From NCBI GenBank assembly GCA_900234795.1, contig LT962688.1, positions 1,620,001 through 1,652,000 on the forward strand: a stretch of DNA of 32,000 nt, written 5' to 3'. Shown here piece after piece: positions 5,128 to 32,000 of this stretch. The position numbers and the translations under genes are program-made. The notes under the pieces were generated by a model, which saw only the letters and a program-made list of their open reading frames with translations, ran no database searches and was not told where the DNA came from. Positions within the stretch are counted from its first letter, which is position 1. The number at the start of each line of letters is the position of its first letter. This DNA comes from Methylorubrum extorquens (GTDB lineage: Bacteria > Pseudomonadota > Alphaproteobacteria > Rhizobiales > Beijerinckiaceae).

Positions 5128-6533
5128 ATGGACGTCCGCACACGCCGCCTCCTCGAGGCCCCTATCGTGCCGACCCTGGCCCGGATGGCCGCGCCCAACA
5201 TCCTGGTGATGGCGGTCCAGACCTCCGTCGGCCTTATCGAAACGTATTTCGTGTCGATGCTCGGGACGGACGCATTGGCCGGGATGGCCCTCGTCTTTCC
5301 GGTGGTGATGCTGGTCCAGATGCTCTCCGCCGGCGGGATGGGGGGCGCCATCCAATCGGCGGTCTCCCGCACGCTGGGTGCGGACCGGCAGGCGGACGCC
5401 GGAGTTCTGGCGTGGCACGCGATGGTGCTCGGCCTGGGGCTCGGCATTGCGACGAGCCTCGTGCCCTTCCGTTCGGGCCAACCCTCTACGCGGCGATGGG
5501 CGGGACCGGAGGCTCGCTCCGAGCGGCGACCACCTACGCGTCCATCGTGTTCGGCGGGGCGGTCCTGATCTGGCTGTTCAACGCGCTGTCGGCCGTGATC
5601 CGCGGCACAGGCAACATGGTGCTTCCGGCCATCGTCACCTGCGTCGGGGCCGTCGTGCTGATCCCGCTCTCGCCCGCGCTCATCTTCGGCTGGGGGTCGT
5701 TCCCCGAGTTCGGCGTCGCGGGCGGTGGCGTGGCGTTTGCGGCCTACTACGCCGCGGGGTCCGCGGTCTTCGCCGCCTACATCTGGTCCGGCCGCAGCGT
5801 CCTCCGCCCGAGCCGGCGCTTGCCCGCTCTCTCTTGGGGGCCGTCACGGGAGATCCTGCGCATCGGGGTTCTTTCGGGCATCGCCAGCATGACCTCGAAC
5901 GTCACAGTCATCGTGGCGACCGGCTTCGCCGGGGCGGCGGGGCCGGCGGCCGTGGCCGGCTACGGGACCGGCGCCCGGCTCGAATACCTCCTGGTCCCCC
6001 TCGTGTTCGGTCTCGGCTCTCCCATCGCAGCCATCGTCGGTACGGCCCTGGGAGCGGGCGACCACGCACGAGCCCGCCAGGCGGCCCTGACGGGTGCCCT
6101 CATCGCCGGTGTCCTGACGGAGTTCATCGGGGTCGCGGCCGCCCTGCACCCGGCCGCGTGGCTCGGCCTGTTTGGAGACGATCCGGCGATGCTCGCAACG
6201 GGCTCGCTCTACCTGCGAATCGTCGGCCCGTTCTACGGATTTTTCGGCTTCGGGCTGGCCCTGTACTTCGCCGCTCAGGGTGCAGGACGTGTCGGCTGGC
6301 CGCTCGCCGCCAGCCTCCTTCGGATGGGGGTCGCATTGGGCGGTGCTTGGCTCGCCTTGGCGCTCGGGCTCGGCCTCGCCGGAACATTCATTGCCATGTC
6401 GGCCGGGTTCGTCACCATGGGGCTCGTCAACGCGGCGGCCTTCGCGACGGGCAAGATGTTCCCGAGCGACGCCCTCGGCCCACCCTCCGTAACTTCCGCA
6501 ACGCTAGCTCCAGCCGCGGGCGTGAGACGCTGA
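5128..6533 (+). pseudogene. MATE family efflux transporter, reading frame broken by an apparent 1-nt deletion near 5463
   Basis: The N-terminal 112 aa or so (frame of ORF 5128..5568: RLLEAPIVPTLARMAAPNILVMAVQTSVGLIETYFVSMLGTDALAGMALVFP) and the remainder (frame of ORF 4740..6533 from ALPFGPTLYAAMGG onward) are both MATE-like. They join only if one base is added at 5461-5465 (gtg|gcc). This is either a real pseudogene or an assembly error. Confidence 0.75.
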
Positions 6534-6606: not shown

Positions 6607-7053
6607 ATGCTGCTCGCGACGGTCTTCGTCGGGGCGGCAGGAATGAAGCTTGCGGCGTCCGAATTCGAGACCATGAACTTCGCACGCTTCGGCTACGCGC
6701 CATGGTTCATGTACCTGGCGGGTCTCGCCGAAATGCTGGGTGCGGTCCTGCTCTGGGTCCGGGGACATGTCGCGTACGGTGCGCTGCTCCTTGCTGTCTT
6801 GGCTGTCTTGGCTGTCTTGATGGCGGGTGGTGCAGTCAGCCACCTGCGCGTCGGCGACCCGGTGATGCTGGCTGCCCCGGCGCTCGGCCTGATGGCGCTA
6901 CTGTGCGGTATCGCCGTTGCGCACCGGCACGAACTCCCCTTCCCGCGACGCCGAACGAGGGCGGAAGATTCGGATACGTTCGAAGCCCAAGCAAGCTGCT
7001 TTGGCCGAACTCACGCCGACAGGGCCATCACGGCGGCACGAAAGGCGCCCTGA
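6607..7053 (+). CDS. DoxX-like small membrane protein
   Basis: The 148-aa ORF has 3-4 predicted hydrophobic helices and a DoxX-like opening (FVGAAGMKLAA...FGYAPWFMYLAGLAEMLGAVLL). No alternative upstream start exists because a stop lies at 6574-6576. The 3' end overlaps the convergent MarR gene by 43 nt. Confidence 0.55.
   Translation: MLLATVFVGAAGMKLAASEFETMNFARFGYAPWFMYLAGLAEMLGAVLLWVRGHVAYGALLLAVLAVLAVLMAGGAVSHLRVGDPVMLAAPALGLMALLCGIAVAHRHELPFPRRRTRAEDSDTFEAQASCFGRTHADRAITAARKAP
6793..6819 (+). repeat. perfect 9-bp tandem repeat (gctgtcttg x3) inside the DoxX-like CDS, encoding (LAV)3
   Basis: Read directly: gctgtcttg gctgtcttg gctgtcttg. It is in frame with the CDS. Confidence 0.85.
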
Positions 7054-7460
7054 TCGACCTTGCCGAGTTGTCGGGCAACCGTCTCCTGGGCCTGCTGCCA
7101 GAGAGGGTACGCTTCGGCGAGGAGCGTGCGGCCCTCGTCGCTGAGTACGACCCGCCGGACACGACGATCCTCCGCATCGCCCTGCACGGTCACGAGGCCG
7201 CGGCGCTCCAGGGGCTTCAGGTTGGCCGTGATGGTCGTACGATCCGTCGCCAAGTGCTGCGCCAGGGCGCTGATGGTCGGCGGCTCCTCGCGAACCAGCA
7301 TCATCAGCAACGTAAATTGCCAGTTCGAGAGCCCGGTCGGTCGAAGGGCGGCGTCGTACCTGCGCCCGATGGCGCGCGCGGCCTTCTGCGCCGCGAAGCT
7401 GTAGCAGCTCCGCTCGACCGATGCGGCCATCGTCGGGGTCAGGACGTGATCTCGGGCCAT
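7011..7460 (-). CDS. MarR family transcriptional regulator
   Basis: ORF 7011..7517 contains a winged-helix MarR core (LSNWQFTLLMMLVREEPPTISALAQHLATDRTTITANLKPLERRGLVTV). The preferred start is the ATG at 7460 (MARDHVL), preceded by AGGGGAG. The longer 7517 start has no visible RBS. Confidence 0.85.
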   Translation of the reverse strand: MARDHVLTPTMAASVERSCYSFAAQKAARAIGRRYDAALRPTGLSNWQFTLLMMLVREEPPTISALAQHLATDRTTITANLKPLERRGLVTVQGDAEDRRVRRVVLSDEGRTLLAEAYPLWQQAQETVARQLGKVDQGAFRAAVMALSA

Positions 7461-9904: not shown

Positions 9905-9980
9905 TGGTGGAGCTGAGGGGAATCGAACCCCTGACCTCCGCAGTGCGATTGCGGCGCTCTCCCATCTGAGCTACAGCCCC
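9905..9980 (-). tRNA. tRNA-Ala: tRNA-Ala (anticodon CGC)
   Basis: The reverse complement is GGGGCTGTAGCTCAGATGGGAGAGCGCCGCAATCGCACTGCGGAGGTCAGGGGTTCGATTCCCCTCAGCTCCACCA. It folds as a cloverleaf with a 7-bp acceptor stem carrying the G3:U70 Ala identity pair. It has a GCTC/GAGC D arm, a CCGCA/TGCGG anticodon stem with loop ATCGCAC (anticodon CGC), a GGTTCGATTCC T-loop and an encoded CCA. Confidence 0.95.
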
Positions 9981-10587: not shown

Positions 10588-11634
10588 ATGAAGACCAATC
10601 CGGGCCGCTTCTTCGAGGATTTCCGCCTCGGGGAGACCATCCGCCATGCCACGCCGCGCACCGTCACCACGGGCGACGTGGCGCTCTACACCGCCCTTTA
10701 CGGCCCGCGCTTTGCCGTGCAGTCCTCGGACGCCTTCGCCAAGGCGATCGGCTATCCGGCGAGCCCGCTCGACGACCTGCTCACCTTCCACGTCGTCTTC
10801 GGCAAGACCGTGCCGGACGTCTCGCTCAACGCGTTGGCTAATCTCGGCTATGCCGAGGGCGGCTTCCACCGCCCGGTCTATCCCGGCGAGACACTCTCGA
10901 CCGTCTCCGAGGTGATCGGGCTCAAGGAAAGCTCCAACCGCCAGACCGGCGTGGTCTATGTGCGTTCCACCGGCTCCGACGCCTCTGGCCAGACCGTGCT
11001 GAGCTATTGCCGGTGGGTTCTCGTGCGCAAGCGCGACCCGGAGGCCAAGATCGCCGAGGAGCACGTGCCTCAGCTCGCCAAGGTGGTGAACCCGGCCGAC
11101 CTCGCCCACGCCCTGCCCCCGCTCGATCCGGCCGCCTACGACAATGCGCTGGCCGGCAGCCCGCATCGCTTCGCGGATTACGCGGTCGGCGAGAAGATCG
11201 ACCACGTCGATGGCATGACCGTCGAGGAGGCTGAGCACCAGATCGCCACGCGCCTGTTCCAGAACACCGCCAAGGTCCATTTCGACGCGGTGGCGACCAA
11301 GGAGACGAAGTTCGGCAAGCGCCTGATCTATGGCGGCCACGTCATCTCGCTCGCCCGCGCGCTCAGCTTCAACGGGCTCGCCAACGCGTTCGCCATCGGC
11401 GGCATCAATGCCGGCCGCCACGTCGCGCCGCTCTTTGCCGGTGACACGGTCTATGCGTGGTCCGAGGTGCTGGAGACGGCCGAACTGCCCGGCCGCAGCG
11501 ATATCGGCGCGTTGCGCCTGCGCACGGTGGCGACCAAGAACCAGGCTTGCGGCGCCTATCCGGACAAGCAGGGCGAGGGCTACGACCCGTCGGTGATCCT
11601 CGATCTCGACTATTGGGCCTTCATCCCGCGCTGA
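10588..11634 (+). CDS. double-hotdog MaoC-family (R)-hydratase, likely mesaconyl-CoA hydratase (2-methylfumaryl-CoA hydratase) of the ethylmalonyl-CoA pathway
   Basis: The 348-aa ORF has two MaoC/hotdog halves. The N-terminus MKTNPGRFFEDFRLGE and the size match my recollection of Mch/Mcd-type mesaconyl-CoA hydratases of Rhodobacter and Methylobacterium. The specific function is inferred, not verified. Confidence 0.75.
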   Translation: MKTNPGRFFEDFRLGETIRHATPRTVTTGDVALYTALYGPRFAVQSSDAFAKAIGYPASPLDDLLTFHVVFGKTVPDVSLNALANLGYAEGGFHRPVYPGETLSTVSEVIGLKESSNRQTGVVYVRSTGSDASGQTVLSYCRWVLVRKRDPEAKIAEEHVPQLAKVVNPADLAHALPPLDPAAYDNALAGSPHRFADYAVGEKIDHVDGMTVEEAEHQIATRLFQNTAKVHFDAVATKETKFGKRLIYGGHVISLARALSFNGLANAFAIGGINAGRHVAPLFAGDTVYAWSEVLETAELPGRSDIGALRLRTVATKNQACGAYPDKQGEGYDPSVILDLDYWAFIPR

Positions 11635-23310: not shown

Positions 23311-24084
23311 ATGGAAACAGCCCCCGAGCCCAACACCGGCGGCAAGCCCGAGACCGGTGGGCCATCCGGTTCGTCGAACGCCGACACGGCCTCGCACAAG
23401 CCCAACCCGCGTGAGGCCGCGGTCGAGGCGCTGATGCGCCTCGCGGCGGAGCAGCCCTGGAACGACATCGAGGTCGGCGACATCGCCCGCGAGGCGGGGC
23501 TGAGTCTGGCCGAATTGCGCGACCTGTTCCCCTCGAAGGGCGCCGTGCTCGGCGGTCTGTCGCGGATCATCGATCGCAAGGTGCTGGAGGTCGACACCGC
23601 CGACCTCGCCGACGAGCCGGCCCGCGAGCGCCTGTTCGACGTGCTGATGCGCCGGCTCGACGCGATGACGCCCTACAAGCCGGCCCTGCGCCGCATCGCC
23701 TTCGCGCTGCGTGGCGACGTCCTGTCCATGCTGGCGCTCAACGGGGTCGCCCTGAACTCCCACCGCTATATGCTGGCCGCTGCCGGCATCGACACGGAGG
23801 GACCGCTCGGCCGGCTCAAGCTTCAGGGCACCGTGATCGCCTTCGCCCGCACCGTCGAGGTCTGGCTCGACGATGACGACCCGGCGCTCGCCCGCACCAT
23901 GGCCAAGCTCGACCGCGAGATCCGCCGCGGCGAGACCCTCATGGAACGCGCCGACGACGCTCGCCGCCTCACCGCGCCCCTGCGCGCCCTTGGCCGTGCC
24001 GTTCTGGAGCGCCGCTCGCGCCGCGACCGGACACCGCCGCCGGCGGGTGATGGCGAGGATCGCGATCCCGCCGCGGCGATCTGA
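23311..24084 (+). CDS. TetR-family-like transcriptional regulator with a long unstructured N-terminus
   Basis: A TetR-type HTH region is visible (EALMRLAAEQPWNDIEVGDIAREAGLSLAELRDLFPSKGAVL), followed by a helical C-terminal domain. Length is 257 aa. Confidence 0.65.
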   Translation: METAPEPNTGGKPETGGPSGSSNADTASHKPNPREAAVEALMRLAAEQPWNDIEVGDIAREAGLSLAELRDLFPSKGAVLGGLSRIIDRKVLEVDTADLADEPARERLFDVLMRRLDAMTPYKPALRRIAFALRGDVLSMLALNGVALNSHRYMLAAAGIDTEGPLGRLKLQGTVIAFARTVEVWLDDDDPALARTMAKLDREIRRGETLMERADDARRLTAPLRALGRAVLERRSRRDRTPPPAGDGEDRDPAAAI

Positions 24085-24111
24085 GCGCAGAGCTCCAGGT
24101 GGAAAGAGTTC

Positions 24112-24142
24112 GGGGTCGGAGCGCGTTTGCCGGTCCGACCCC
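24112..24142 (+). terminator. 9-bp stem hairpin (GGGGTCGGA / TCCGACCCC) downstream of the TetR-like gene
   Basis: Read directly. A second hairpin, CACCGACT-ccca-AGTCGGTG, follows at 24160-24179. Neither has a clear U-tail. Confidence 0.4.
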
Positions 24143-24456
24143 TGAACGATGATCCAAAGCACCGACTCCCAAGTCGGTGTGCTCGAAGCCCGCCGTTGGC
24201 TGAAATCGTACTGGGAAACGGTCCGCGCTTCGGCGGCCGAGGGCAAAGACTTGTCGGCCCTGCCTCCGGCTCAATCGCGCGCTTGACAGCCGTTCTGGCC
24301 GTGAAGGTCTTGCTGCATTCCTGTGCAGATCTTCCGTCGCTGACGGTGTTGCACTCTGCAGTAGGCTAGGCCGACTTGACTAGGCACAGGGGTGCTGAGC
24401 TTCCGGCGCACGAGAGGTCGCAAACGGCCGGAGATGACACTCCGGCCTTAGGGTCT

Positions 24457-24570
24457 TTACCGGTCCCACCCCTTCAGGTCGCAGAGCGTCATGAAGTCGT
24501 GGATCGTGATCAGATCAGCATCAAGCAGAGCCAGGGCTTCATCACGGCTCTTGATCGCTTCGGCGTTCAT
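24457..24570 (-). CDS. possible 37-aa small protein (MNAEAIKSRDEALALLDADLITIHDFMTLCDLKGWDR)
   Basis: The ATG at 24570 has GGAAAGG about 9 nt upstream. The stop is followed on the minus strand by the hairpin GGCCGGAG-tgtcat-CTCCGGCC plus GTTTG (24426-24447). Local GC is lower than the surroundings. I recognised no family, so the call is weak. Confidence 0.3.
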   Translation of the reverse strand: MNAEAIKSRDEALALLDADLITIHDFMTLCDLKGWDR

Positions 24571-24889
24571 GGAATGCGCCTTTCCAGTGTCGTGTTTTGA
24601 AGAACGACAAGCTAAAGCTTTCGTTCCTTTCGTCTGGAGGAGCATCTCGCGTGCCAGCGGCAACATCGTCGGCGAACCGCTTCGAGGCGCATCGCTCCGG
24701 AGGTCGGAATCCAAGCGATGCGCCGCGTTCTCGGGCCTGCCTCGGCCTCGGTCGGGTCAGCAGGTACCTAAGACGAGGGTTCGACGCGTCCTCGCGTTGA
24801 ACCCGTTCGGTCTTCGGCGAGCGCGGTCTGCTCGGGCCTCCTGTTCCTGCATCGTCCCGAAAGCCGGTTGCCACCTTTCGGGACGACGC

Positions 24890-25567
24890 TTAGCCCTCCC
24901 GTCCGCCGCCCATCGTCGCCTGCATCCGCGAGAGCTGAGCGATGTGCCGCTGGATCAGCGGGATCGCGCCGGCCGCGATGCGGCGCAGGCCCGGATCGTC
25001 GCCGGCCTGGGCGTAGGAGCCGTGGATGTTGAGGGCCTCCTGATGGCCCTGAAGCGAGGCGTTGACGAACATCGCGTCGTATTCGGGACCGGGCTGCATC
25101 CCGGAGAGCTGCGACAGGATCTGAGCCTTCTGCTCATCCGTCGTCATGCCGCCGGGACCGCGCCCACCGGGTACACCCAGAACGCCGCCGACCGCACCGA
25201 CGGTCGCCCCCGCGACGCCGCCCGCCACCGCCAGCGGCGCCTCGACCAAACCGCCGACGAGGCCGGCCGGACCGGCGGGCGCGCCTGCCATCGGCGCGCC
25301 CGCACCCAGATACGGGTCCAGCTTGCGGGCGAGGTTGACCTGCTCGGTCACCTCGGCCCGGCTGAAGGCTTTGACGCGCGGATTGCGGGTCTTGGCGTGG
25401 GCATCGCGCGCCGTGTTCTCGAGGAACAGGCCGCCCTTCGTCGCCATGGCGAGGTAGACCGGCGCCGGCATGGCACCGGCCGGCGCCGGTTGCGCCAGGG
25501 CGGTCCGGGTGACGGCCAGGGCCGCCGTTGCCGTCAGCAGGGTCGTCAGAAAATCGCGCCGATGCAT
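24890..25567 (-). CDS. DUF4142 domain-containing exported protein (Tat-type signal)
   Basis: The signal is MHRRDFLTTLLTATAALAV. Two DUF4142-like half-domains (GGLFLENTARDAHAKTRNPRVKAFSRAEVTEQ and YDAMFVNASLQGHQEAL...IPLIQRHIAQL) are separated by a Gly/Ala/Pro-rich linker. Confidence 0.72.
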   Translation of the reverse strand: MHRRDFLTTLLTATAALAVTRTALAQPAPAGAMPAPVYLAMATKGGLFLENTARDAHAKTRNPRVKAFSRAEVTEQVNLARKLDPYLGAGAPMAGAPAGPAGLVGGLVEAPLAVAGGVAGATVGAVGGVLGVPGGRGPGGMTTDEQKAQILSQLSGMQPGPEYDAMFVNASLQGHQEALNIHGSYAQAGDDPGLRRIAAGAIPLIQRHIAQLSRMQATMGGGREG

Positions 25568-25734
25568 GGTCTCGGGTCTCCCGGTCTGAAAACGATGCTC
25601 GGGCGCCGGTTTGCTTGTGCGGTGCCGGAGTCTGACGGGCGAAACCTTCGCGAAATCAGCAATGTTCCTGCCGTTCCAGGGGTGGCTTCAAACGAAGACG
25701 CTCGGGCGATCCCGACCGGGTTTGCTGCCGGGAT

Positions 25735-26235
25735 TCAGGGGCCGATCGAGGGACGCAAACGGGCCATGCAATGCACGTCGGCGAAGATGCCGTTGCGAAA
25801 CGAGGCCGCCTTGTGCGTCCCCTCGATGGTGAAGCCGAACTTTTCGTAGAGGGCGATGGCGCGGGTATTGTCGGTGAAGACCGTCATCTCGATGCGCACA
25901 ATATTGATCCAGTTGTCGGCCGTATCGATCACCGCGGCGAGAAGCCGCGAGCCGATGCCGTGTCCGGCGAAATCCTCATGCACGGCGATCCAGAACTCCG
26001 CCGCATGTGCCCGCCGCCCGTAGAAGGGGCGCAGGGCCGCTGCCCCGACGACGCGCTCGCCCTGCTGCGCGGCGAGGTGCAGATCCCGCGGCGAGCGGGG
26101 CTCGGCCCACTTCTTCACGGCCTCGAACGATTCGTAGGGGAGCGCCAGCGTTCCGAAACGGAAGGCGGGCTGGTTGTAGATCTCGAACAGATCCGGCGCG
26201 TCGTCCTCGCGCATGGCCCGTATCGTCACATCCAT
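25735..26235 (-). CDS. GNAT family N-acetyltransferase
   Basis: The start at 26235 (MDVTIRAMREDDAPDLFEIY) is preferred. The acetyl-CoA binding motif is AVHEDFAGHGIGSRLL, and ALYEKFGF is also present. Length is 166 aa. The upstream 65 codons of the track ORF have no support. Confidence 0.85.
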   Translation of the reverse strand: MDVTIRAMREDDAPDLFEIYNQPAFRFGTLALPYESFEAVKKWAEPRSPRDLHLAAQQGERVVGAAALRPFYGRRAHAAEFWIAVHEDFAGHGIGSRLLAAVIDTADNWINIVRIEMTVFTDNTRAIALYEKFGFTIEGTHKAASFRNGIFADVHCMARLRPSIGP

Positions 26236-26312
26236 ACTGGTCCTCGCTCCGTGTGAAGGTCTGATCTCGTCGAGAGCCGGTTCGACCGGCCCGTTCCGGC
26301 AACGATGACGAT

Positions 26313-26442
26313 CCTCATGCTGAGGTGCTGCGGCAGCAGCCTCGAAGCACGCCGCGACGTTGATCCCGGTCGCCGATGCCGTCGAATTGATCGTTCCGGC
26401 GTGCTTCGAGGCCGCGCTTTCGCGCGGCACCTCAGCATGAGG
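26313..26442. repeat. 130-nt nested perfect inverted repeat (16-bp outer arms, 15-bp inner arms)
   Basis: The outer arms are CCTCATGCTGAGGTGC (26313-26328) and GCACCTCAGCATGAGG (26427-26442). The inner arms are CCTCGAAGCACGCCG (26340-26354) and CGGCGTGCTTCGAGG (26397-26411). Each outer arm is itself a mini-palindrome (CCTCA-nnn-TGAGG). The element lies between the DUF2218 stop and the GNAT start. Confidence 0.8.
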
Positions 26443-26524
26443 GGCGGAGTGCCGGCTGAAGCGACGCCGCCATGCCGTCTTGCAGCGATACGCTCGATGC
26501 GAAGCGCGTCTTGCCTGACGCGGC

Positions 26525-26803
26525 TCACGTCCAGTCGAAGCGCAGCGTCTCGCGGAAGGCGAAGCGCTCGATGTGGCGCACGACCACGTCGCGCAGGTCG
26601 GGCAGGCTGGCGGCGTCCTGTGCGGTCAGGTCGATCGTCAGGGTCTCGGCGCTGGCACTCAGCCGCGTCTCACCGAGCGGCAGGGCAATCCGGGCATCGG
26701 TCGGGCTGAACTCGGTCTCGAACCGGTGGGCCCAGTGTTTGCAGAGCTGCTGGAGGTAGCGGCTGGCATGCGGGGTGCCGACGACGGCACGGCTCTCGGT
26801 CAT
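26525..26803 (-). CDS. DUF2218 domain-containing protein (last gene of the metallophore operon)
   Basis: MTESRAVVGTPHASRYLQQLCKHWAHRFETEF...VVVRHIERFAFRETLRFDW matches the DUF2218 pattern (ASRYL.QLCKH.AH). AGGAG lies upstream of the ATG at 26803. The gap to the AsbF-like gene is only 28 nt. Confidence 0.75.
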   Translation of the reverse strand: MTESRAVVGTPHASRYLQQLCKHWAHRFETEFSPTDARIALPLGETRLSASAETLTIDLTAQDAASLPDLRDVVVRHIERFAFRETLRFDWT

Positions 26804-26831
26804 GTCGGTCTCCTGAAGTTCCGGCGCCGGC

Positions 26832-27668
26832 TCAGCGCGCGGCGTGGAGGGCTCCCGCCCCGCGGCGGCCGGCAGTGGCACTGCGCAGGCGGAAAAGGTC
26901 GGTGGGCAGGACCGAGAAGCTGGCCTCGCCGAACCATTCGAGCGAGCCTTCCGCCTGCGGCGGCAGCGTCTTCAGGAAAGCGGCGTAATCCAGCGCGCCC
27001 TCGAACAGGCCGGTCATGCCCTCGCGCCGTCCGGCCGCGGCATAGACGTTGGCCGGCTCGAACACCGACAGGTCGGCGCGGCTGCGCACGTTCTTGAGGT
27101 GATAGTAGTCGATATGCGGGGAGAGCCGGGCGTGGGCCGCGAGCGGGTCGTCGCCGCCTTCCCAGACGTGGAGCGTGTCGAAATTGACCCGGAGGTTCGG
27201 GTGATCGACCGCATCCAGCAGGTCGAGGAGCGAGGCGGTGGTGTCGGCGAGCGTGCCGGGATGCGTCTCCACCACGAGGCGCAGGCCCTGGTCGGCGAGT
27301 TGGCCCGCCGCCATCCGCAGGCGCTGGGCGACATGGGCGCGCTCGTCGAGCGAGGCGGCCGCACTGCCCTTGGTCCCGGCGAAGGTGCGCAGCCGCGGCG
27401 CCCCCCAGCTCCCGGCGAGCCGGGCGAGTTCGGCCGTCCGCTCGGTCAGGATTTCCAGCGGCGCGTCGAGCGGCAGGTAGTCGCTCAGCATCGGCACGCG
27501 CAGGCCGTAGGCGGCGAGCCATTCAGCGTGGTCGCCGGGGCCGAGATTGCGGGCATGCACGCCCCACAATTCGATGCCGTCGAAGCCGTGGCCGCGGGCG
27601 AAGCGGGCGAGTTCGCCGATCGACACGAGATGGTGGCGAAAGCTGATGGTGCAGAGTGCGATTCTCAT
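26832..27668 (-). CDS. asbF: AsbF-like 3-dehydroshikimate dehydratase (xylose-isomerase-like TIM barrel)
   Basis: The 278-aa protein is co-linear with my recollection of B. anthracis AsbF. Shared blocks are LCTISFRH, GIELWGVHA.NL, RTFAGTKGSA, ETHPGTLADT, DHPNLRVNFD, HVWE, YYHLKN, FEPANVYAAAGRREGM, LFEG and SLEWFG. Its ATG overlaps the upstream stop (ATGA at 27665-27668). Confidence 0.8.
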   Translation of the reverse strand: MRIALCTISFRHHLVSIGELARFARGHGFDGIELWGVHARNLGPGDHAEWLAAYGLRVPMLSDYLPLDAPLEILTERTAELARLAGSWGAPRLRTFAGTKGSAAASLDERAHVAQRLRMAAGQLADQGLRLVVETHPGTLADTTASLLDLLDAVDHPNLRVNFDTLHVWEGGDDPLAAHARLSPHIDYYHLKNVRSRADLSVFEPANVYAAAGRREGMTGLFEGALDYAAFLKTLPPQAEGSLEWFGEASFSVLPTDLFRLRSATAGRRGAGALHAAR

Positions 27669-28972
27669 GCGGAGAGCCTTTCGCGTGACGGGAGCGCCTG
27701 TCCGAGATCCGGGCTGTTCTGCCGCCACGCCGCGTAGGCCGCGGCGAGCTGCCGCTTGATCGCGAATTCCTGCGCGTCGAGCGCATCGAGCCGCGCGAGG
27801 ACGGAGGCGACCTCCCCCGTCTCCCCCGTCCGGGCGAGCTTGAGGACGGCGTAGTGCAGGGCGGTGAGGCCGTTCACCAGGGCCTCGATCTCGTCGCAGA
27901 TCCGCTGGAACTCCGGGTCCGGCCAGCGCAGGGCCCGCCAGAAGAAGGCGAAGCCGTGCTCGTAGGCCCATTTGCGGATGGTGATGACCGGCAGTTCGCG
28001 CAGCGCCTCGCCGACATCCGTCAGCTTCAGCCCGCCCCGCCCCTCGGCATGGGCGAGCACGATGGCGCGCGCGGCATCGATCAGCGGGTTGGCGTCGAAT
28101 CGGAAGCAGGCGTCGAAGAAGGCGGCGAGATTCGTGTCCGCCGGCGGATGGGCCCGCGAGGGCTCGAAGCGGTAGCCGCCGGCGACGCTGGGCTGGCGGA
28201 TGGCGTTCAGCATCCGCTCGCGCTCGATCACGCCCTCCCAGCGGAAGTCGGGGTCGCGCACTTGCCAGAAGCCGGGATCGTCGCCGAGCGAGACGAGGAG
28301 GTAGTGCGGGAAGGGGTTCTGGTTGAACTTGTTCTCGCGCTCGGGGAGGTGGAACATATCGAGCATCACCATGATGCACGTGTCCGGCTCCCGCCGCTCT
28401 AGGAGGTCGAGCAGGGTGGCGACGTTCTCGTCCTTCGAACGGGAATGGTCGTACCAGGAGACGAGCGGCACGCCGTAGAGCCGTTCGAACCAGTAGCGGA
28501 ACGACTCGTGGTCCATCGCGTCCGAGTGGTAGGCGAGCCGCGAGCCGTCGGTGATGGCGAACTCGGCGTCCCAGATCAGGGCATAGAACGGGCGGTGGTC
28601 GATGCCCCGCATCTTCAGCCCGTCGCAGACGCAGCTGACGAAGCAGTGGATCTTCAGGTCGTAGGACATCGCGCCGTGGACACCCTCGGAGGGCGTCTCG
28701 GACTCGGCGACCGGTGCGGCCGGCTCCGCGCCCGGCGCCAGGAGCCGGGCGAGGTCGGCGACGGTGGAGACGTCCTGCCGGTTGATCGCTTCTTCTGGCA
28801 CCGACACCCCATGCGTCAGTTCCAGCGCCAGGATGAGCTGAAGCAACTGGACGGAATCGAGGTAGAGATCCTCGTTCAGCCGTGCGTCCGGCCCGAACCC
28901 ATCGAGATGGGGATGCTGCATCTCCTCGCGCAGCACCGTGCCGATGGCCGCGATCAGCGTCTCGTTGCTCAC
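27665..28972 (-). CDS. aryl/acyl carrier protein (AsbD-like) continuous in frame with an AsbE/BtrH-like carrier-protein:amine acyltransferase domain
   Basis: The GTG start at 28972 overlaps the TGA of the ligase gene (GTGA). The carrier-protein motif is EDLYLDSVQLLQLILALE, which holds the phosphopantetheinyl Ser. An Ala/Pro/Glu linker follows, then MSYDLKIHCFVSCVCDGLKMRG... from 28669, a 334-aa BtrH_N/AsbE-like domain. No stop codon separates the two parts. The internal ATG at 28669 is an alternative start for a separate AsbE-like protein. Confidence 0.7.
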   Translation of the reverse strand: MSNETLIAAIGTVLREEMQHPHLDGFGPDARLNEDLYLDSVQLLQLILALELTHGVSVPEEAINRQDVSTVADLARLLAPGAEPAAPVAESETPSEGVHGAMSYDLKIHCFVSCVCDGLKMRGIDHRPFYALIWDAEFAITDGSRLAYHSDAMDHESFRYWFERLYGVPLVSWYDHSRSKDENVATLLDLLERREPDTCIMVMLDMFHLPERENKFNQNPFPHYLLVSLGDDPGFWQVRDPDFRWEGVIERERMLNAIRQPSVAGGYRFEPSRAHPPADTNLAAFFDACFRFDANPLIDAARAIVLAHAEGRGGLKLTDVGEALRELPVITIRKWAYEHGFAFFWRALRWPDPEFQRICDEIEALVNGLTALHYAVLKLARTGETGEVASVLARLDALDAQEFAIKRQLAAAYAAWRQNSPDLGQALPSRERLSA

Positions 28973-30235
28973 GCCACCGCCTCCAGCGCGCCGTCCCGGT
29001 ACTGCGCAGCGACCGCGCGACGAGAAATCTTGCCGTTGGCCTCGCGCGGGATCGCGCCGACCTGCACCGCCTCGACCGGCACCTGATGGCCGGCGAGCCA
29101 GCGGCGGCACCAGTCCTGCAGCGCCCGGGGCGGCACGGGAGCGTCGGCGCTGAACAGCAGCGTCACCCGCTCGCCCGCAAACGGATCGGGCCGGGCGAAG
29201 GCCACGGCGTCGGTGATGCCGGGCATGGCCATCACCACGTCCTCGACCTCGCCGGGATAGACGTTGAGGCCCGAGACGTTGATCGTGTCGTCCTTGCGCG
29301 CGACGAAGATCAGCATGCCGTCGGGCGCCAGGTAGCCGAGATCGGCGGTGTGGATCGCCCCGCCCTCCCCCTCGACCACGATTTCCGCCGGGGCCTCGGC
29401 GCCGGTCCCCGCCCGGACGCGGTGGTGCGGCAGCGGCCGGCCCATGGCGTCGGCGCGGCGCAGATCCGGGTTGATCGCGATACAGCCGGCTTCCGAGCAG
29501 CCGTATTGCTGGAACAGGTGGGTGACGCGCCCGCGGATGGCGGAAAACCAGGGTGCGGGCAGGAGCGTGCCCGAGACCATCGCCGCGTGGAGGGTCTCGC
29601 CCTCGGGCATCAGCCGGGCCAGCGTGTGCAGCATGGCGGGTGCGGTGTAGAGCACCGGCCGCTCGATCTCGCGCAGGCGGCGCAGGAGGTATTTCGGGTT
29701 GGTGGTGTCCACGATCACCGGCACGCAGCCGCGGCGCAGACCCACGAACAGGCCGCAGATCAGCCCGTAGGAATGGGTGATCGGGCAGGCGATGACCGGT
29801 GTCATCCCGTCCGGCTCGGTGAAGGCGCCGACATAGCTCTCGATCTCGCGCTCGACCGCGCTCCAGGGGGCGGGCGATGCATTTCGGCTCGCCTGTGGTG
29901 CCGGAACTCATCTGGAAAAGCTCGCCCTCCCCCGGGACCGGCGGGGCGGCGCCGTCCAGGGGCTCGCCCTCCAGGCTGTCGAGGAACAGGCGGTGGCAGC
30001 CGGCGCGCTGGGCGAGCCGGCGCGCGCCCTCGTCTGGCAGGGCCGGATGGATCGGCAGCAGGCTCGCGCCGCTGCGGCGGGCGGCGAGGATGAAGGCAAG
30101 ACCCTGGGCGGTGTCGCGGAAGCGCGCGGCGACGCGCTCGCCGCTGCCGCCGCGCAGGGCCGCCGTATCCGCGACGCGCCGGATGGCGGCCTCCATCGCG
30201 TCCGCTGGGATGGTGCGGCCGTCGATCTCGATCAT
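28969..30235 (-). pseudogene. AsbC-like short aryl-AMP ligase (adenylate-forming enzyme); frame broken once at a G5/C5 run near 29866-29870
   Basis: The N-terminal part is in the frame of the 1435-aa ORF (MIEIDGRTIP...LFQMSSGTTGEPKCIARP). The remainder is in the frame of ORF 28969..29805 (WSAVEREIESYVGAF...ITHSYGL...QQYGCSEAG...HTADLGY...RKDDTINVSGLNVYPGEVE...REANGKISRR). The two join across ctccagggggcggg. No stop lies between this ORF and the upstream IucA/IucC region. Confidence 0.72.
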
Positions 30236-31951
30236 GCAGGCTCCGGAAAGGGCGTCAGGGGAGGAAGGGAACAGGGCGTTGGGCGCCAGCAGGCTGCCGC
30301 CCGCCTCGCCGAGCCCGAGCTTGCGCGACAGCAGCGCCTCGACCCGCAGCCGGGGCGCCTCGGCAGCGAGGCGGGCGAAACGCGCCTCCAGCCCATGCTC
30401 CGCCGCGTGGTGCCGCAGACGCTGGCCGAGGCGGCGCCAGAACCCTGCCTCGTCGAGGCCGTGCCGGCGCTGGAGCAGGCGGGTGATCTCGCAGAGGTTG
30501 AAGACGAACAGGCTGTCGGTGACGAGTTCGGCGAGCGTCGCGGCCGAGCGCATGGCGTGGAAGCGGTCGTCCGCCGGCCCGGCATGGGCCGGGTCGATCG
30601 CCCCGAAATCCGGCACGCGCTCCGGGCTCGTCACGAAGTCGGGCGCGTATTCCGCGCTCTCGTGGAAGTCGCGCAGGATCACCCGATCCGGCCAGCCGTC
30701 GCGGTGGACCAGAATCATGTTCTGGCCGTGCGCCTCCAGGGCGACGCCGTGGCCCGCGAGCAGGTGCCAGACCGGCAGCACCGCGACCGTGACCAAGCGG
30801 TCGAGCCAAGCGTCGCGGCCGTAGCGTTCGAGCCAGGGCGCGATGAAGGGGCTCCCGTCCGCCTCGCACACGGCCAGCGCGTTGAAGGGCACGGCCGCTT
30901 CGCCGGGAACGAGACGCGGGCTCTCCCGCCAGATCGCGGCGAGCTGCCCGGCGAGCGGACCGTCCCGGTCGGCGAGCGCGGCAGCGTATTCGCGCAGCAC
31001 CGTCACGCGGCCCTGCAGCGCGGGATCGGCGGCGACGAGGCCGGCGAGCCAGTCGGACAGGGCCGGGCCGGTCAGCACGAAATGCGGGTCGAGGATGCGC
31101 AGGCTCGAGGTCGAGACGACGGCAAGCGCCAGCTTCACGCTCGCGGCGGACGGGTCGTCGAGATTGTGCAGCGTGCGCAGGGACTGGCTCGCGACATAGC
31201 GCGGGCCGGCGGTGCCGAGCGCGACGGCGCGGCCCTCCGCCAGCCAGGGGGCGCAAAGCCTCCTCTTCGAGCCGGCGCATCTGCCAGGGATGGACCGGCA
31301 GCAGCGTGTGCGTGTCGATGGAATGGCCGGCTGCGGCGAGGCGGCTGGCGAGGACGTCCCCCTCCCCGCCGAGTTCGGCCCGCCAGAACCCATCCTCCGG
31401 GCCCGGCAGCGCGAGGGCGATGGTGTCCCGACGGACAGCCAGCCATTCGAGGCGGAACGGCGCGGCGGCTTCGGGCCCGTAGCGGTGGTGATCCTCCAGA
31501 GAGAAGCCGGTGCGCGCCTTGAAGCTCGGATGGTAGGGATGGCCCTCCCACAAAGCCGCATCGAGCGCGGCGAAGGGCAGCGCGCGGCGCTCCGGCGGCG
31601 ACAGGTTTTGGCTATTCCAGCGGCAGAGTTCGACCGTCTGCCGAAGCTCGGCCCGCAGCCGCGTCCGGTGCTCCGGGGCGGCGGGAAGGGCTTCCACGAG
31701 GGTGGCGAGGTCGGCCTGCACCCAGGCGCCCTCTTCGCCTGCCATCTCGACCGAACCGGAATCGAGGCGGGGGCGGCCGAAGGGGGGCCGAGAGTACCGG
31801 CCGCGCGAAAGCGATGGGAGCCGACGCGCCATGCGATCCGACCGGAGACGTTGGGGGCCGGCTCGCGCTCGGCCAGCCCTTCGAACAGGACGGCTTCGGC
31901 CAACTGGCGCAGGACACGCGCTTCGGGCTGCTCCAAGGTTTCGGGAAGCAT
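30236..31951 (-). pseudogene. IucA/IucC-family NRPS-independent siderophore (NIS) synthetase (AsbA/AsbB-like); two apparent frameshifts at G/C homopolymers
   Basis: The start ATG at 31951 lies 4 nt after the upstream stop. The opening MLPETLEQPEARVLRQLAEAVLFEGL is in frame A down to about 31790. The frame of ORF 30255..31832 then carries PFGRPRLD...WEGHPYHPSFKAR...LLPVHPWQ. Frame A resumes from about 31250 with PWLAEGRAVALG...SLRTL...VKLALAVVSTSSLRIL...LEAHGQNMILV...RDFHES...APNALF. The shifts coincide with G6 at 31782-31787 and G5 at 31247-31251. Confidence 0.75.
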
Positions 31952-31955
31952 GGCC

Positions 31956-32000
31956 TCAGGACGCGAGGGCATGGCCGGCCTCGCCCCGAGCCGCCCGAAG
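31956..32000 (-). CDS. 3' end of a further minus-strand CDS that continues beyond the window (unknown product; by asb synteny possibly a second NIS synthetase)
   Basis: An open frame runs from base 32000 down to a TGA at 31956-31958 (...LRAARGEAGHALAS*), 4 nt before the ATG at 31951. It is too short to identify. Confidence 0.3.
   Translation of the reverse strand, partial: LRAARGEAGHALAS

What the first reader, a model, noticed from the sequence alone, without database searches (positions are those of the whole stretch)
26525..32000. asb-like aryl-capped NIS metallophore operon (petrobactin/rhodopetrobactin type) running off the right edge; candidate lanthanophore or siderophore locus
Seen in the sequence: six tightly packed minus-strand functions, in this order.
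- An upstream CDS tail.
- An IucA/IucC synthetase with the HPWQ, STSSLR and EAHGQN motifs.
- A short adenylating enzyme (SSGTTGEPK ... GKISRR).
- A carrier protein (LYLDSVQ).
- An AsbE/BtrH-like transferase.
- An AsbF-like dehydroshikimate dehydratase.
- DUF2218.

The genes are joined by overlapping or near-overlapping start and stop codons: 4 nt at 31951-31958, GTGA at 28969-28972, ATGA at 27665-27668, and a 28-nt gap to DUF2218.

Established knowledge: this is the gene logic of Bacillus anthracis asbABCDEF, which makes petrobactin (citrate plus spermidine capped with 3,4-dihydroxybenzoate). It is also the logic of the rhodopetrobactin cluster of the alphaproteobacterium Rhodopseudomonas palustris.

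From memory, not checkable here: an asb-like 'lanthanide chelation cluster' (mll) in Methylorubrum extorquens AM1 was reported to make the lanthanophore methylolanthanin, with genes named as fusions (mllBC, mllDE).

Inference: the rest of the window looks like a Methylobacterium/Methylorubrum chromosome. This operon may therefore supply a rare-earth chelator for XoxF-type methanol oxidation rather than, or in addition to, iron. Receptor, regulator and export genes would lie beyond the window edge.
Basis: partly seen in the sequence, partly recalled or inferred. Interest (0 to 1): 0.9.

Follow-up and report, generated by a model that had tools for sequence, protein, structure and literature searches.

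The report
Known rhodopetrobactin/methylolanthanin gene cluster
This is the already described citrate-polyamine-hydroxybenzoate metal-chelator gene cluster (mll / rhodopetrobactin type) of Methylorubrum extorquens, here in strain TK 0001, and its only oddity, three frameshifts in one gene, is most likely an assembly error.

Summary
[quoted passage not shown] This is the same gene set as the published mll cluster of M. extorquens AM1 and the rhodopetrobactin cluster of PA1 and R. palustris.

Family matches are strong: IucA_IucC 1e-63, DUF6005 5e-135, AsbF (3DX5) 8e-66, AsbB (3TO3) 6e-85.

Gene coordinates in a published table place the window at M. extorquens TK 0001 chromosome 1,620,001-1,652,000. 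[quoted passage not shown]

- **mllF is full length.** It is like PA1 and AsbF, not truncated as in AM1. The predicted product is therefore the catecholate siderophore rhodopetrobactin, not 4-hydroxybenzoate methylolanthanin.
- **mllBC carries seven extra bases as deposited.** They are +2, +1, an in-frame +3 and +1, all in C-rich tracts. That gives three frameshifts, found in no other assembly. They are probably residual nanopore errors. If real, the cluster would be dead.

Novelty: already known. Interest is low.

The parts
31956..32000 (-). 3' end of mllA (AsbA-like IucA/IucC NIS synthetase): last 14 codons plus stop
   Evidence: The translation LRAARGEAGHALAS* equals the C-terminus of the 594-aa IucA_IucC/FhuF protein in L002. 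It corresponds to TK0001_v2_1773, 1651956-1653740.
28969..31972 (-). mllBC: AsbB-like NIS synthetase fused to an AsbC-like aryl-adenylating domain. It is broken into three reading frames in the window as given.
   Evidence: Pfam IucA_IucC, FhuF, AMP-binding and AMP-binding_C on the frame-corrected protein. Best PDB match is AsbB 3TO3, 5.8e-85. NCBIfam PRK08308, 2e-151. Removing 7 nt makes the gene identical to the intact 2997-nt gene of L002.
31782..31787 (-). Frameshift site 1: a C6 run on the coding strand where all other assemblies have C4 or shorter (+2 nt)
31247..31251 (-). Frameshift site 2: a C5 run in the context CGCCCCCTGG where others have C4 (+1 nt). Together with site 1 it restores the frame.
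30260..30262 (-). In-frame 3-nt insertion (TCC on the coding strand) private to the window
29866..29870 (-). Frameshift site 3: a C5 run in the same context CGCCCCCTGG (+1 nt), just after the SSGTTGEPK motif
27665..28972 (-). mllDE: AsbD-like aryl carrier domain fused to an AsbE-like (DUF6005) aryl transferase. GTG start overlaps the mllBC stop (GTGA).
   Evidence: Pfam PP-binding 1.2e-5 and DUF6005 5.5e-135. NCBIfam AsbD 2.8e-19. Fused in 78 of 78 related loci.
26832..27668 (-). mllF: AsbF-like 3-dehydroshikimate dehydratase, full length
   Evidence: Aligns residues 1-258 to AsbF 3DX5 residues 1-267, E 7.6e-66, starting at residue 1 of both proteins. Pfam AP_endonuc_2.
26525..26803 (-). mllG: DUF2218 protein
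   Evidence: Pfam DUF2218 4.9e-33. Named mllG in PMC11317620.
25735..26235 (-). mllH: GNAT N-acetyltransferase (acetylates the polyamine arms)
   Evidence: Acetyltransf Pfam families on the identical protein in L001/L002. NCBIfam N-acetyltransferase 5.9e-28. Role shown in AM1.
24890..25567 (-). mllJ: DUF4142 protein with a Tat-type signal; last gene of the cluster
   Evidence: Pfam DUF4142 on the identical protein. Equals TK0001_v2_1768, 1644890-1645567.

Best explanation
The region is the biosynthetic half of the mll / rhodopetrobactin-type NRPS-independent metallophore cluster of Methylorubrum extorquens strain TK 0001 (chromosome 1,620,001-1,652,000).

**Inferred pathway** (by homology to petrobactin biosynthesis and from the AM1 knockouts):
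- MllF dehydrates 3-dehydroshikimate to 3,4-dihydroxybenzoate (3,4-DHB).
- The C domain of MllBC adenylates the aryl acid and loads it on the carrier domain of MllDE.
- The E domain of MllDE transfers it to homospermidine amines.
- MllA and the B domain of MllBC condense the polyamine arms onto citrate.
- MllH acetylates the arms.
- MllG and MllJ are accessory.

**Predicted product.** mllF is intact here, as in PA1, so the predicted product is the catecholate siderophore rhodopetrobactin B rather than the 4-hydroxybenzoate compound methylolanthanin of AM1.

**Frameshifts.** The three frameshifts and one codon insertion in mllBC are most likely uncorrected errors of the MinION-based reference assembly, not biology.
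For: **Gene content and order.**
- They are identical to the published mll cluster, mllA-BC-DE-F-G-H-J with mluARI (= PMC11317620).
- Near-identical contigs carry the receptor (Plug/TonB_dep_Rec), FecR, the ECF sigma factor, a 594-aa IucA/IucC protein and an intact 998-aa IucA_IucC+FhuF+AMP-binding protein.

**Source of the window.** Four genes match published TK 0001 coordinates with an offset of exactly 1,620,000:
- mllJ, 1644890-1645567
- the mllA stop, 1651956
- MarR, 1627011-1627460
- the MatE fragment, 1625547-1626533

**mllF state.**
- It aligns to AsbF from residue 1.
- AM1's N-terminal frameshift in mllF is what switches the product to methylolanthanin. The intact PA1 gene gives rhodopetrobactin.

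**Frameshifts are probably artefacts.**
- The seven extra bases are absent from CP021054.1. They are also absent from Illumina-derived contigs that otherwise match the window base for base, and from six other species.
- The Illumina runs carrying the strain-specific MatE deletion and 9-bp duplication belong to the same accession series as those carrying intact mllBC.
- Removing the seven bases gives a gene identical to theirs.
- All five window-private differences sit in C/G tracts. Two frameshifts share the context CGCCCC(C)TGG.
- The TK 0001 genome is a MinION assembly polished with MiSeq reads and has 6,160 CDSs in 5.71 Mb.
- Its annotation lists fragments of rpoH, a suf permease, fbpA and modA.
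- mllA, mllJ and the adjacent FecI-like sigma factor appear with positive fold changes in the TK 0001 transcriptome tables. The authors report that siderophore genes were up-regulated.
Against: - No chemistry, expression data or read-level data for this locus could be examined here.
- The four indels cluster within 1.9 kb, while about 27 kb of compared sequence has none. Taking G/C runs of 4 or more as equally error-prone gives (20/203)^3, about 0.001. A purely random residual-error model therefore does not fit. A local polishing failure has to be assumed.
- All four are insertions, whereas (from my own knowledge) nanopore consensus errors are more often deletions.
- That the ERR runs are TK 0001 derivatives is inferred from shared alleles and accession series. 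It was not read from run metadata.
- Real frameshifts in this cluster do occur in laboratory strains: mllF in AM1 and in M. aminovorans.
Confidence: 0.85

Rival explanations
1. The mllBC frameshifts are real in the TK 0001 stock that was sequenced. The strain would then be a natural or laboratory mllBC-null. It would make no rhodopetrobactin or methylolanthanin, keep the receptor, and rely on other iron systems or on chelators made by neighbours.
For: - The frameshifts are in the sequence as given.
- mllBC is essential for product formation in AM1.
- Frameshift pseudogenisation has happened in this cluster in AM1 and in M. aminovorans.
- The indels are non-randomly clustered in one gene.
Against: - Three frameshifts plus a codon insertion, with zero substitutions across 10.5 kb, is not how a pseudogene decays.
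- Illumina contigs of what appears to be the same lineage have the intact gene.
- All private differences are in homopolymer contexts.
- The reference assembly shows fragment genes elsewhere, including rpoH and suf.
Confidence: 0.1
2. The cluster's main physiological role in this strain is lanthanide acquisition (a lanthanophore) rather than iron acquisition.
For: - In AM1 the homologous genes were the most up-regulated on poorly soluble Nd2O3.
- The AM1 product supports lanthanide-dependent growth and Nd accumulation.
- The AM1 promoter responds to both Nd and Fe.
Against: - With an intact mllF the expected product is rhodopetrobactin B. In PA1 this compound is induced by iron limitation, and methylolanthanin was not detected there.
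- Rhodopetrobactin B binds Fe3+ more strongly than methylolanthanin does. Both compounds precipitate lanthanides under biologically relevant conditions, which the authors say challenges simple siderophore-like lanthanide uptake.
- The same A-B-C-DE(-F) cluster is found in many non-methylotrophic Hyphomicrobiales, including Shinella, Ensifer, Aminobacter, Neorhizobium and Aureimonas, and in Azospirillum.
Confidence: 0.2

Closest known systems
mll/mlu methylolanthanin cluster of Methylorubrum extorquens AM1 (META1p4129-4138; PMC11317620, PMC13370498)
   Same: - Same genes in the same order: mllA, mllBC fusion, mllDE fusion, mllF, mllG (DUF2218), mllH (GNAT), mllJ (DUF4142).
- The TonB-dependent receptor, anti-sigma factor and ECF sigma factor lie upstream.
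- Same species group.
   Different: - AM1 mllF carries an N-terminal frameshift that inactivates the dehydratase and leads to the 4-hydroxybenzoate-capped product. Here mllF is full length.
- Here mllBC is frameshifted in the deposited sequence, probably an artefact.
Rhodopetrobactin B cluster of M. extorquens PA1 (includes Mext3763; PMC13251462, PMC13370498) and of Rhodopseudomonas palustris TIE-1/CGA009
   Same: - Intact AsbF-like gene.
- DE fusion.
- DUF2218 and GNAT genes.
- The predicted product carries 3,4-DHB caps on acetylated homospermidine-citrate.
   Different: - R. palustris has separate asbB and asbC homologues. Here they are fused, as in AM1.
- No chemistry is available for TK 0001.
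Petrobactin asbABCDEF operon of Bacillus anthracis
   Same: Same enzymology. AsbB (3TO3, 5.8e-85) and AsbF (3DX5, 7.6e-66) are the best solved-structure matches. AsbD and AsbC-type NCBIfam models also hit.
   Different: - In Bacillus there are six separate genes, spermidine instead of homospermidine, and no acetylation.
- Bacillus has no DUF2218 or DUF4142 genes and no TonB/ECF signalling module.

Membership tests
asb-type aryl-capped NIS metallophore cluster (petrobactin / rhodopetrobactin / methylolanthanin) | AsbB-like (type C) IucA/IucC synthetase | tested here: met
   Pfam IucA_IucC 1.3e-63 and FhuF 5.3e-29. Best PDB hit is AsbB 3TO3, 5.8e-85.
asb-type aryl-capped NIS metallophore cluster (petrobactin / rhodopetrobactin / methylolanthanin) | Second, AsbA-like IucA/IucC synthetase | tested here: met
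   Only 14 codons lie in the window. The full 594-aa IucA_IucC/FhuF gene follows in assemblies whose overlapping sequence is at least 99.9% identical to the window, and in the TK 0001 annotation.
asb-type aryl-capped NIS metallophore cluster (petrobactin / rhodopetrobactin / methylolanthanin) | AsbC-like aryl-adenylating enzyme | tested here: met
   AMP-binding 6.9e-20 and AMP-binding_C. NCBIfam PRK08308 2.1e-151, at 504.5 bits against a cut-off of 513, so just below the curated threshold.
asb-type aryl-capped NIS metallophore cluster (petrobactin / rhodopetrobactin / methylolanthanin) | AsbD-like aryl carrier protein with a serine attachment site | tested here: met
   PP-binding 1.2e-5, above Pfam's cut-off. 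NCBIfam AsbD 2.8e-19, below its curated cut-off at 69 against 100 bits. The LDSV motif is present.
asb-type aryl-capped NIS metallophore cluster (petrobactin / rhodopetrobactin / methylolanthanin) | AsbE-like aryl transferase | tested here: met
   Pfam DUF6005 5.5e-135 over 318 of 327 profile positions.
asb-type aryl-capped NIS metallophore cluster (petrobactin / rhodopetrobactin / methylolanthanin) | AsbF-like 3-dehydroshikimate dehydratase | tested here: met
   E 7.6e-66 to AsbF 3DX5, aligned from residue 1. The equivalents of AsbF R102, E142, H144, D172, H175, H198, K200 and E253 are identical in the alignment. The roles of these residues are from my memory of the AsbF structure paper.
asb-type aryl-capped NIS metallophore cluster (petrobactin / rhodopetrobactin / methylolanthanin) | All biosynthetic reading frames intact | tested here: not met
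   mllBC has three frameshifts in the window as given. They are judged to be probable assembly errors.
mll / rhodopetrobactin subfamily of Hyphomicrobiales | DE fusion, DUF2218 (mllG) and GNAT (mllH) in the cluster; BC fusion and DUF4142 (mllJ) as in M. extorquens | tested here: met
   Fusion survey: DE fused in 78 of 78 related loci, BC fused in 14 of 78.
mll / rhodopetrobactin subfamily of Hyphomicrobiales | Adjacent TonB-dependent receptor with a FecR-like anti-sigma factor and an ECF sigma factor (mluARI) | tested here: met
   These lie outside the window. They are present directly upstream in L001/L002, and TK0001_v2_1776 'sigma factor FecI' lies at 1654596-1655138.
Methylolanthanin-producing (AM1-type) allele | Frameshift truncating the N-terminus of MllF, so that 4-hydroxybenzoate is used instead of 3,4-DHB | tested here: not met
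   MllF begins MRIALCTISFRHH and aligns to AsbF MKYSLCTISFRHQ from residue 1. The AM1 state is described in PMC13370498.
Metallophore function (any metal) | A secreted chelator is made and expression responds to Fe or lanthanide supply | not testable with these tools
   Only indirect evidence. mllA, mllJ and the sigma factor appear in the TK 0001 differential-expression tables. Chemistry exists for AM1 and PA1 only.

The most novel reading that the evidence does not exclude
The seven extra bases in mllBC are real in the DSM 1337 stock. TK 0001 would then be a spontaneous non-producer. It would keep an intact receptor and signalling module and an open 1435-aa read-through frame spanning mllBC and mllDE, and it would depend on other chelators.
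Probability: 0.1. Interest if true: 0.3.

Novelty: already known. Interest (0 to 1): 0.12.

Why it matters
It matters little as a discovery. The cluster, its products, its knockouts and the AM1/PA1 difference are all published.

Two practical points follow:
- TK 0001 is used as an industrial methylotroph chassis. It is predicted to make rhodopetrobactin B, as PA1 does, not methylolanthanin.
- The TK 0001 reference sequence probably contains uncorrected indels. Automated annotation or BGC mining may therefore score this cluster as broken, or as a 1435-aa chimeric gene.

Tried and rejected
- **Exact-protein look-ups.** I looked up two window-specific products: the 1435-aa read-through ORF and the DoxX S112F variant. 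Neither is on record, so the source genome could not be identified that way.
- **Genome-contig scan with MllDE.** It returned no hit above 93% identity. The window's own species is absent from the scan results, so the scan served only for comparative context.
- **Text searches.** I searched two TK 0001 papers for mention of reference errors or of this cluster's frameshifts and found nothing explicit. Look-ups of locus numbers TK0001_v2_1769-1772 and of several coordinates in the supplement found nothing.
- **Sigma-70 promoter and intrinsic terminator scan of 24000-26900.** No sites.
- **Irr ICE-box-like motif** (TTTAGAA-N3-TTCTAAA, up to 3 mismatches) in the window and in L002, which includes the region upstream of mllA. 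No sites.
- **Rfam and tRNA scans.** They found only tRNA-Ala.
- **Programmed frameshifting or a functional split gene.** I considered and rejected both. Every relative has a single in-frame gene at all four sites.
Full report
**1. What is in the sequence**

A GC3 frame plot of the minus strand and six-frame translations show a continuous block of minus-strand genes from 32000 down to 24890.

Pfam assigns the following:
- A frame-corrected 1000-aa protein (28969-31972): IucA_IucC (1.3e-63), FhuF (5.3e-29), AMP-binding (6.9e-20) and AMP-binding_C (5.2e-8).
- The next protein (27665-28972): PP-binding (1.2e-5) plus DUF6005, the AsbE family (5.5e-135).
- The next (26832-27668): the xylose-isomerase-like TIM barrel (3.3e-25).
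- The next (26525-26803): DUF2218 (4.9e-33).

The GTGA and ATGA overlaps and the 28-nt spacer are as described.

Against solved structures:
- The synthetase part is closest to petrobactin AsbB (3TO3, 5.8e-85).
- The TIM-barrel protein is closest to AsbF (3DX5, 7.6e-66).

NCBIfam adds AsbD for the carrier domain and PRK08308 for the adenylating domain.

Two more genes to the left belong to the same unit: a GNAT acetyltransferase (25735-26235) and a DUF4142 protein (24890-25567).

**2. What it is**

[quoted passage not shown] This is exactly the set published for the methylolanthanin cluster of M. extorquens AM1, META1p4132-4138 (PMC11317620).

An exact-protein look-up with MllF found the same protein on a 5.6-Mb chromosome, CP021054.1, which one paper used as an M. 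extorquens reference. It also found the protein on many Illumina-derived contigs.

On those contigs the DNA beyond the window's right edge encodes:
- the full 594-aa AsbA-like synthetase;
- then, divergently, an ECF sigma factor, a FecR-type anti-sigma factor and a TonB-dependent receptor.

These are the mluARI homologues.

**3. Where the window comes from**

A supplementary table of Belkhelfa et al. 2019 (PMC6595629) gives TK 0001 gene coordinates. Four of them equal window coordinates plus exactly 1,620,000:

| TK 0001 gene | Genome coordinates | Window equivalent |
|---|---|---|
| TK0001_v2_1768 (mllJ) | 1644890-1645567 | 24890-25567 |
| TK0001_v2_1773, IucA/IucC (mllA) | 1651956-1653740 | stop at 31956 |
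| MarR | 1627011-1627460 | 7011-7460 |
| MATE 'fragment' | 1625547-1626533 | 5547-6533 |

The window is therefore M. extorquens TK 0001 chromosome 1,620,001-1,652,000. This is an inference from coordinates, not a direct database identification.

**4. The frameshifts**

The coding frame of mllBC changes three times.

I aligned the window to CP021054.1 and to the Illumina contigs. Across 10.5 kb the window and the Illumina contigs differ by no substitution and by only four insertions, all in the window and all in mllBC:
- +2 at 31782-31783 (C6 against C4);
- +1 at 31247;
- +3 at 30260-30262 (in frame);
- +1 at 29866.

Supporting observations:
- Deleting these seven bases makes the gene identical to the intact 2997-nt gene.
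- Six other species also have the short, in-frame state at all four sites.
- Illumina contigs from the same run-accession series (ERR28498xx, ERR2831xxx) as those carrying intact mllBC share the strain-specific markers elsewhere in the window: the 1-nt MatE deletion at about 5462 and a 9-bp duplication at 6793-6801. The contigs that span mllBC also carry the window's alleles at the three SNPs that separate it from CP021054.1 in that region. They therefore appear to be the same lineage.
- All five window-private differences lie in C/G tracts. Two of the frameshifts share the context CGCCCC(C)TGG.
- The TK 0001 genome was assembled from MinION reads and polished with MiSeq reads (PMC5824006).
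- Its annotation lists fragments of rpoH, a suf permease, fbpA, modA and others. This points to residual indels genome-wide.

I conclude, at roughly 85-90%, that the mllBC frameshifts are assembly artefacts.

Arguments on the other side:
- The four indels are significantly clustered.
- All four are insertions.
- Real frameshifts in this cluster are documented in AM1 and in M. aminovorans.

If the frameshifts were real the cluster would be non-functional, because mllBC is essential for product formation in AM1.

One side effect is that the frame of the start codon stays open for 1435 codons through mllDE. Only four locus numbers separate mllJ from mllA in the TK 0001 annotation. This is consistent with a chimeric gene call there, but I could not verify it.

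**5. How it most likely works**

This is inferred by homology to petrobactin biosynthesis and from the AM1 knockouts:
- MllF makes 3,4-dihydroxybenzoate from 3-dehydroshikimate.
- MllC adenylates it and loads it on MllD.
- MllE transfers it to homospermidine.
- MllA and MllB build the citrate-bis(homospermidine) core.
- MllH acetylates the arms.
- MllG and MllJ are dispensable accessory proteins.

The decisive allele is mllF:
- In AM1 an N-terminal frameshift inactivates it, and 4-hydroxybenzoate derived from tyrosine is used instead. This gives methylolanthanin.
- In PA1 the gene is intact and the product is rhodopetrobactin B. It is induced by iron limitation, and no methylolanthanin was detected.
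- Here MllF aligns with AsbF from residue 1 and keeps the residues identical at the AsbF metal and catalytic positions.

The prediction is therefore rhodopetrobactin B. The steps are inferred. Nothing about this strain's chemistry was tested.

**6. Siderophore or lanthanophore?**

Evidence for a lanthanide role comes from AM1.

For the catecholate product, published binding work shows higher Fe3+ affinity for rhodopetrobactin B. It also shows precipitation of lanthanides by both compounds, which its authors say challenges simple solubilising uptake.

The A-B-C-DE(-F) cluster also occurs in many non-methylotrophic Hyphomicrobiales and in Azospirillum.

I therefore rate a primarily lanthanide role for this allele as possible but less likely than an iron role.

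**7. Comparative notes**

Among 78 related loci that contain both parts:
- mllDE is always fused.
- mllBC is fused in only 14: the Methylorubrum clade, some Methylobacterium, one Hyphomicrobiales MAG and four Shinella.

Twenty-one loci have no mllF next to mllDE.

**8. Verdict**

The system is already known in detail, so the interest is low.

The useful outcomes are:
- the strain assignment;
- the prediction of rhodopetrobactin rather than methylolanthanin;
- the warning that mllBC is probably mis-assembled in the reference.

Noticed in passing
window 5128-6533 (+), deletion near 5462: The MatE efflux gene is split into 146-aa and 328-aa parts by a 1-nt deletion relative to CP021054.1 and ERR1103851. 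Unlike the mllBC indels, this one is shared with independent Illumina contigs and is annotated 'MATE efflux family protein (fragment)' in TK 0001, so it looks like a real strain allele.
   Followed up: partly
window 6793-6801 and 6941 (DoxX-like gene 6607-7053, +): A 9-bp tandem duplication (GCTGTCTTG) is shared with the Illumina contigs. There is also one window-private substitution (T against C, S112F) in a C4-T-C4 context, which may be another assembly error.
   Followed up: partly
window 27665-31972 (-): Because of the three frameshifts and the high G+C content, the reading frame of the mllBC start codon stays open for 1435 codons through the end of mllDE. Only four locus numbers (TK0001_v2_1769-1772) lie between mllJ and mllA, which suggests a chimeric gene call in the reference annotation.
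   Followed up: partly
TK 0001 genome outside the window (supplement of PMC6595629): The annotation lists fragments of rpoH, a suf Fe-S assembly permease, fbpA, modA, a Na+/H+ antiporter and TonB-dependent receptors. This suggests residual indel errors across the whole reference assembly.
   Followed up: no
L007-L086: The mllDE fusion is universal (78 of 78 loci). The mllBC fusion is found in 14 loci: Methylorubrum, some Methylobacterium, one Hyphomicrobiales MAG and four Shinella. It is therefore not peculiar to the AM1 cluster.
   Followed up: partly
L014, L015, L017-L019, L021, L024, L027 (Methylobacterium) and 13 loci from Rhizobium, Neorhizobium and one Rhizobium sp. MAG: These clusters have no AsbF-like gene next to mllDE within the fetched flank. 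The aryl cap may come from a dehydratase encoded elsewhere, or may be a different acid.
   Followed up: no
window 9905-9980 (-): tRNA-Ala (anticodon CGC) lies in the lowest-G+C kilobase of the window (0.598). It is the only Rfam or ARAGORN hit in the window.
   Followed up: no
window 10588-11634 (+): A MaoC-type hydratase gene. By position it is probably the one listed as meaC (TK0001_v2_1751; ethylmalonyl-CoA pathway) in the TK 0001 paper. It is unrelated to the finding.
   Followed up: no
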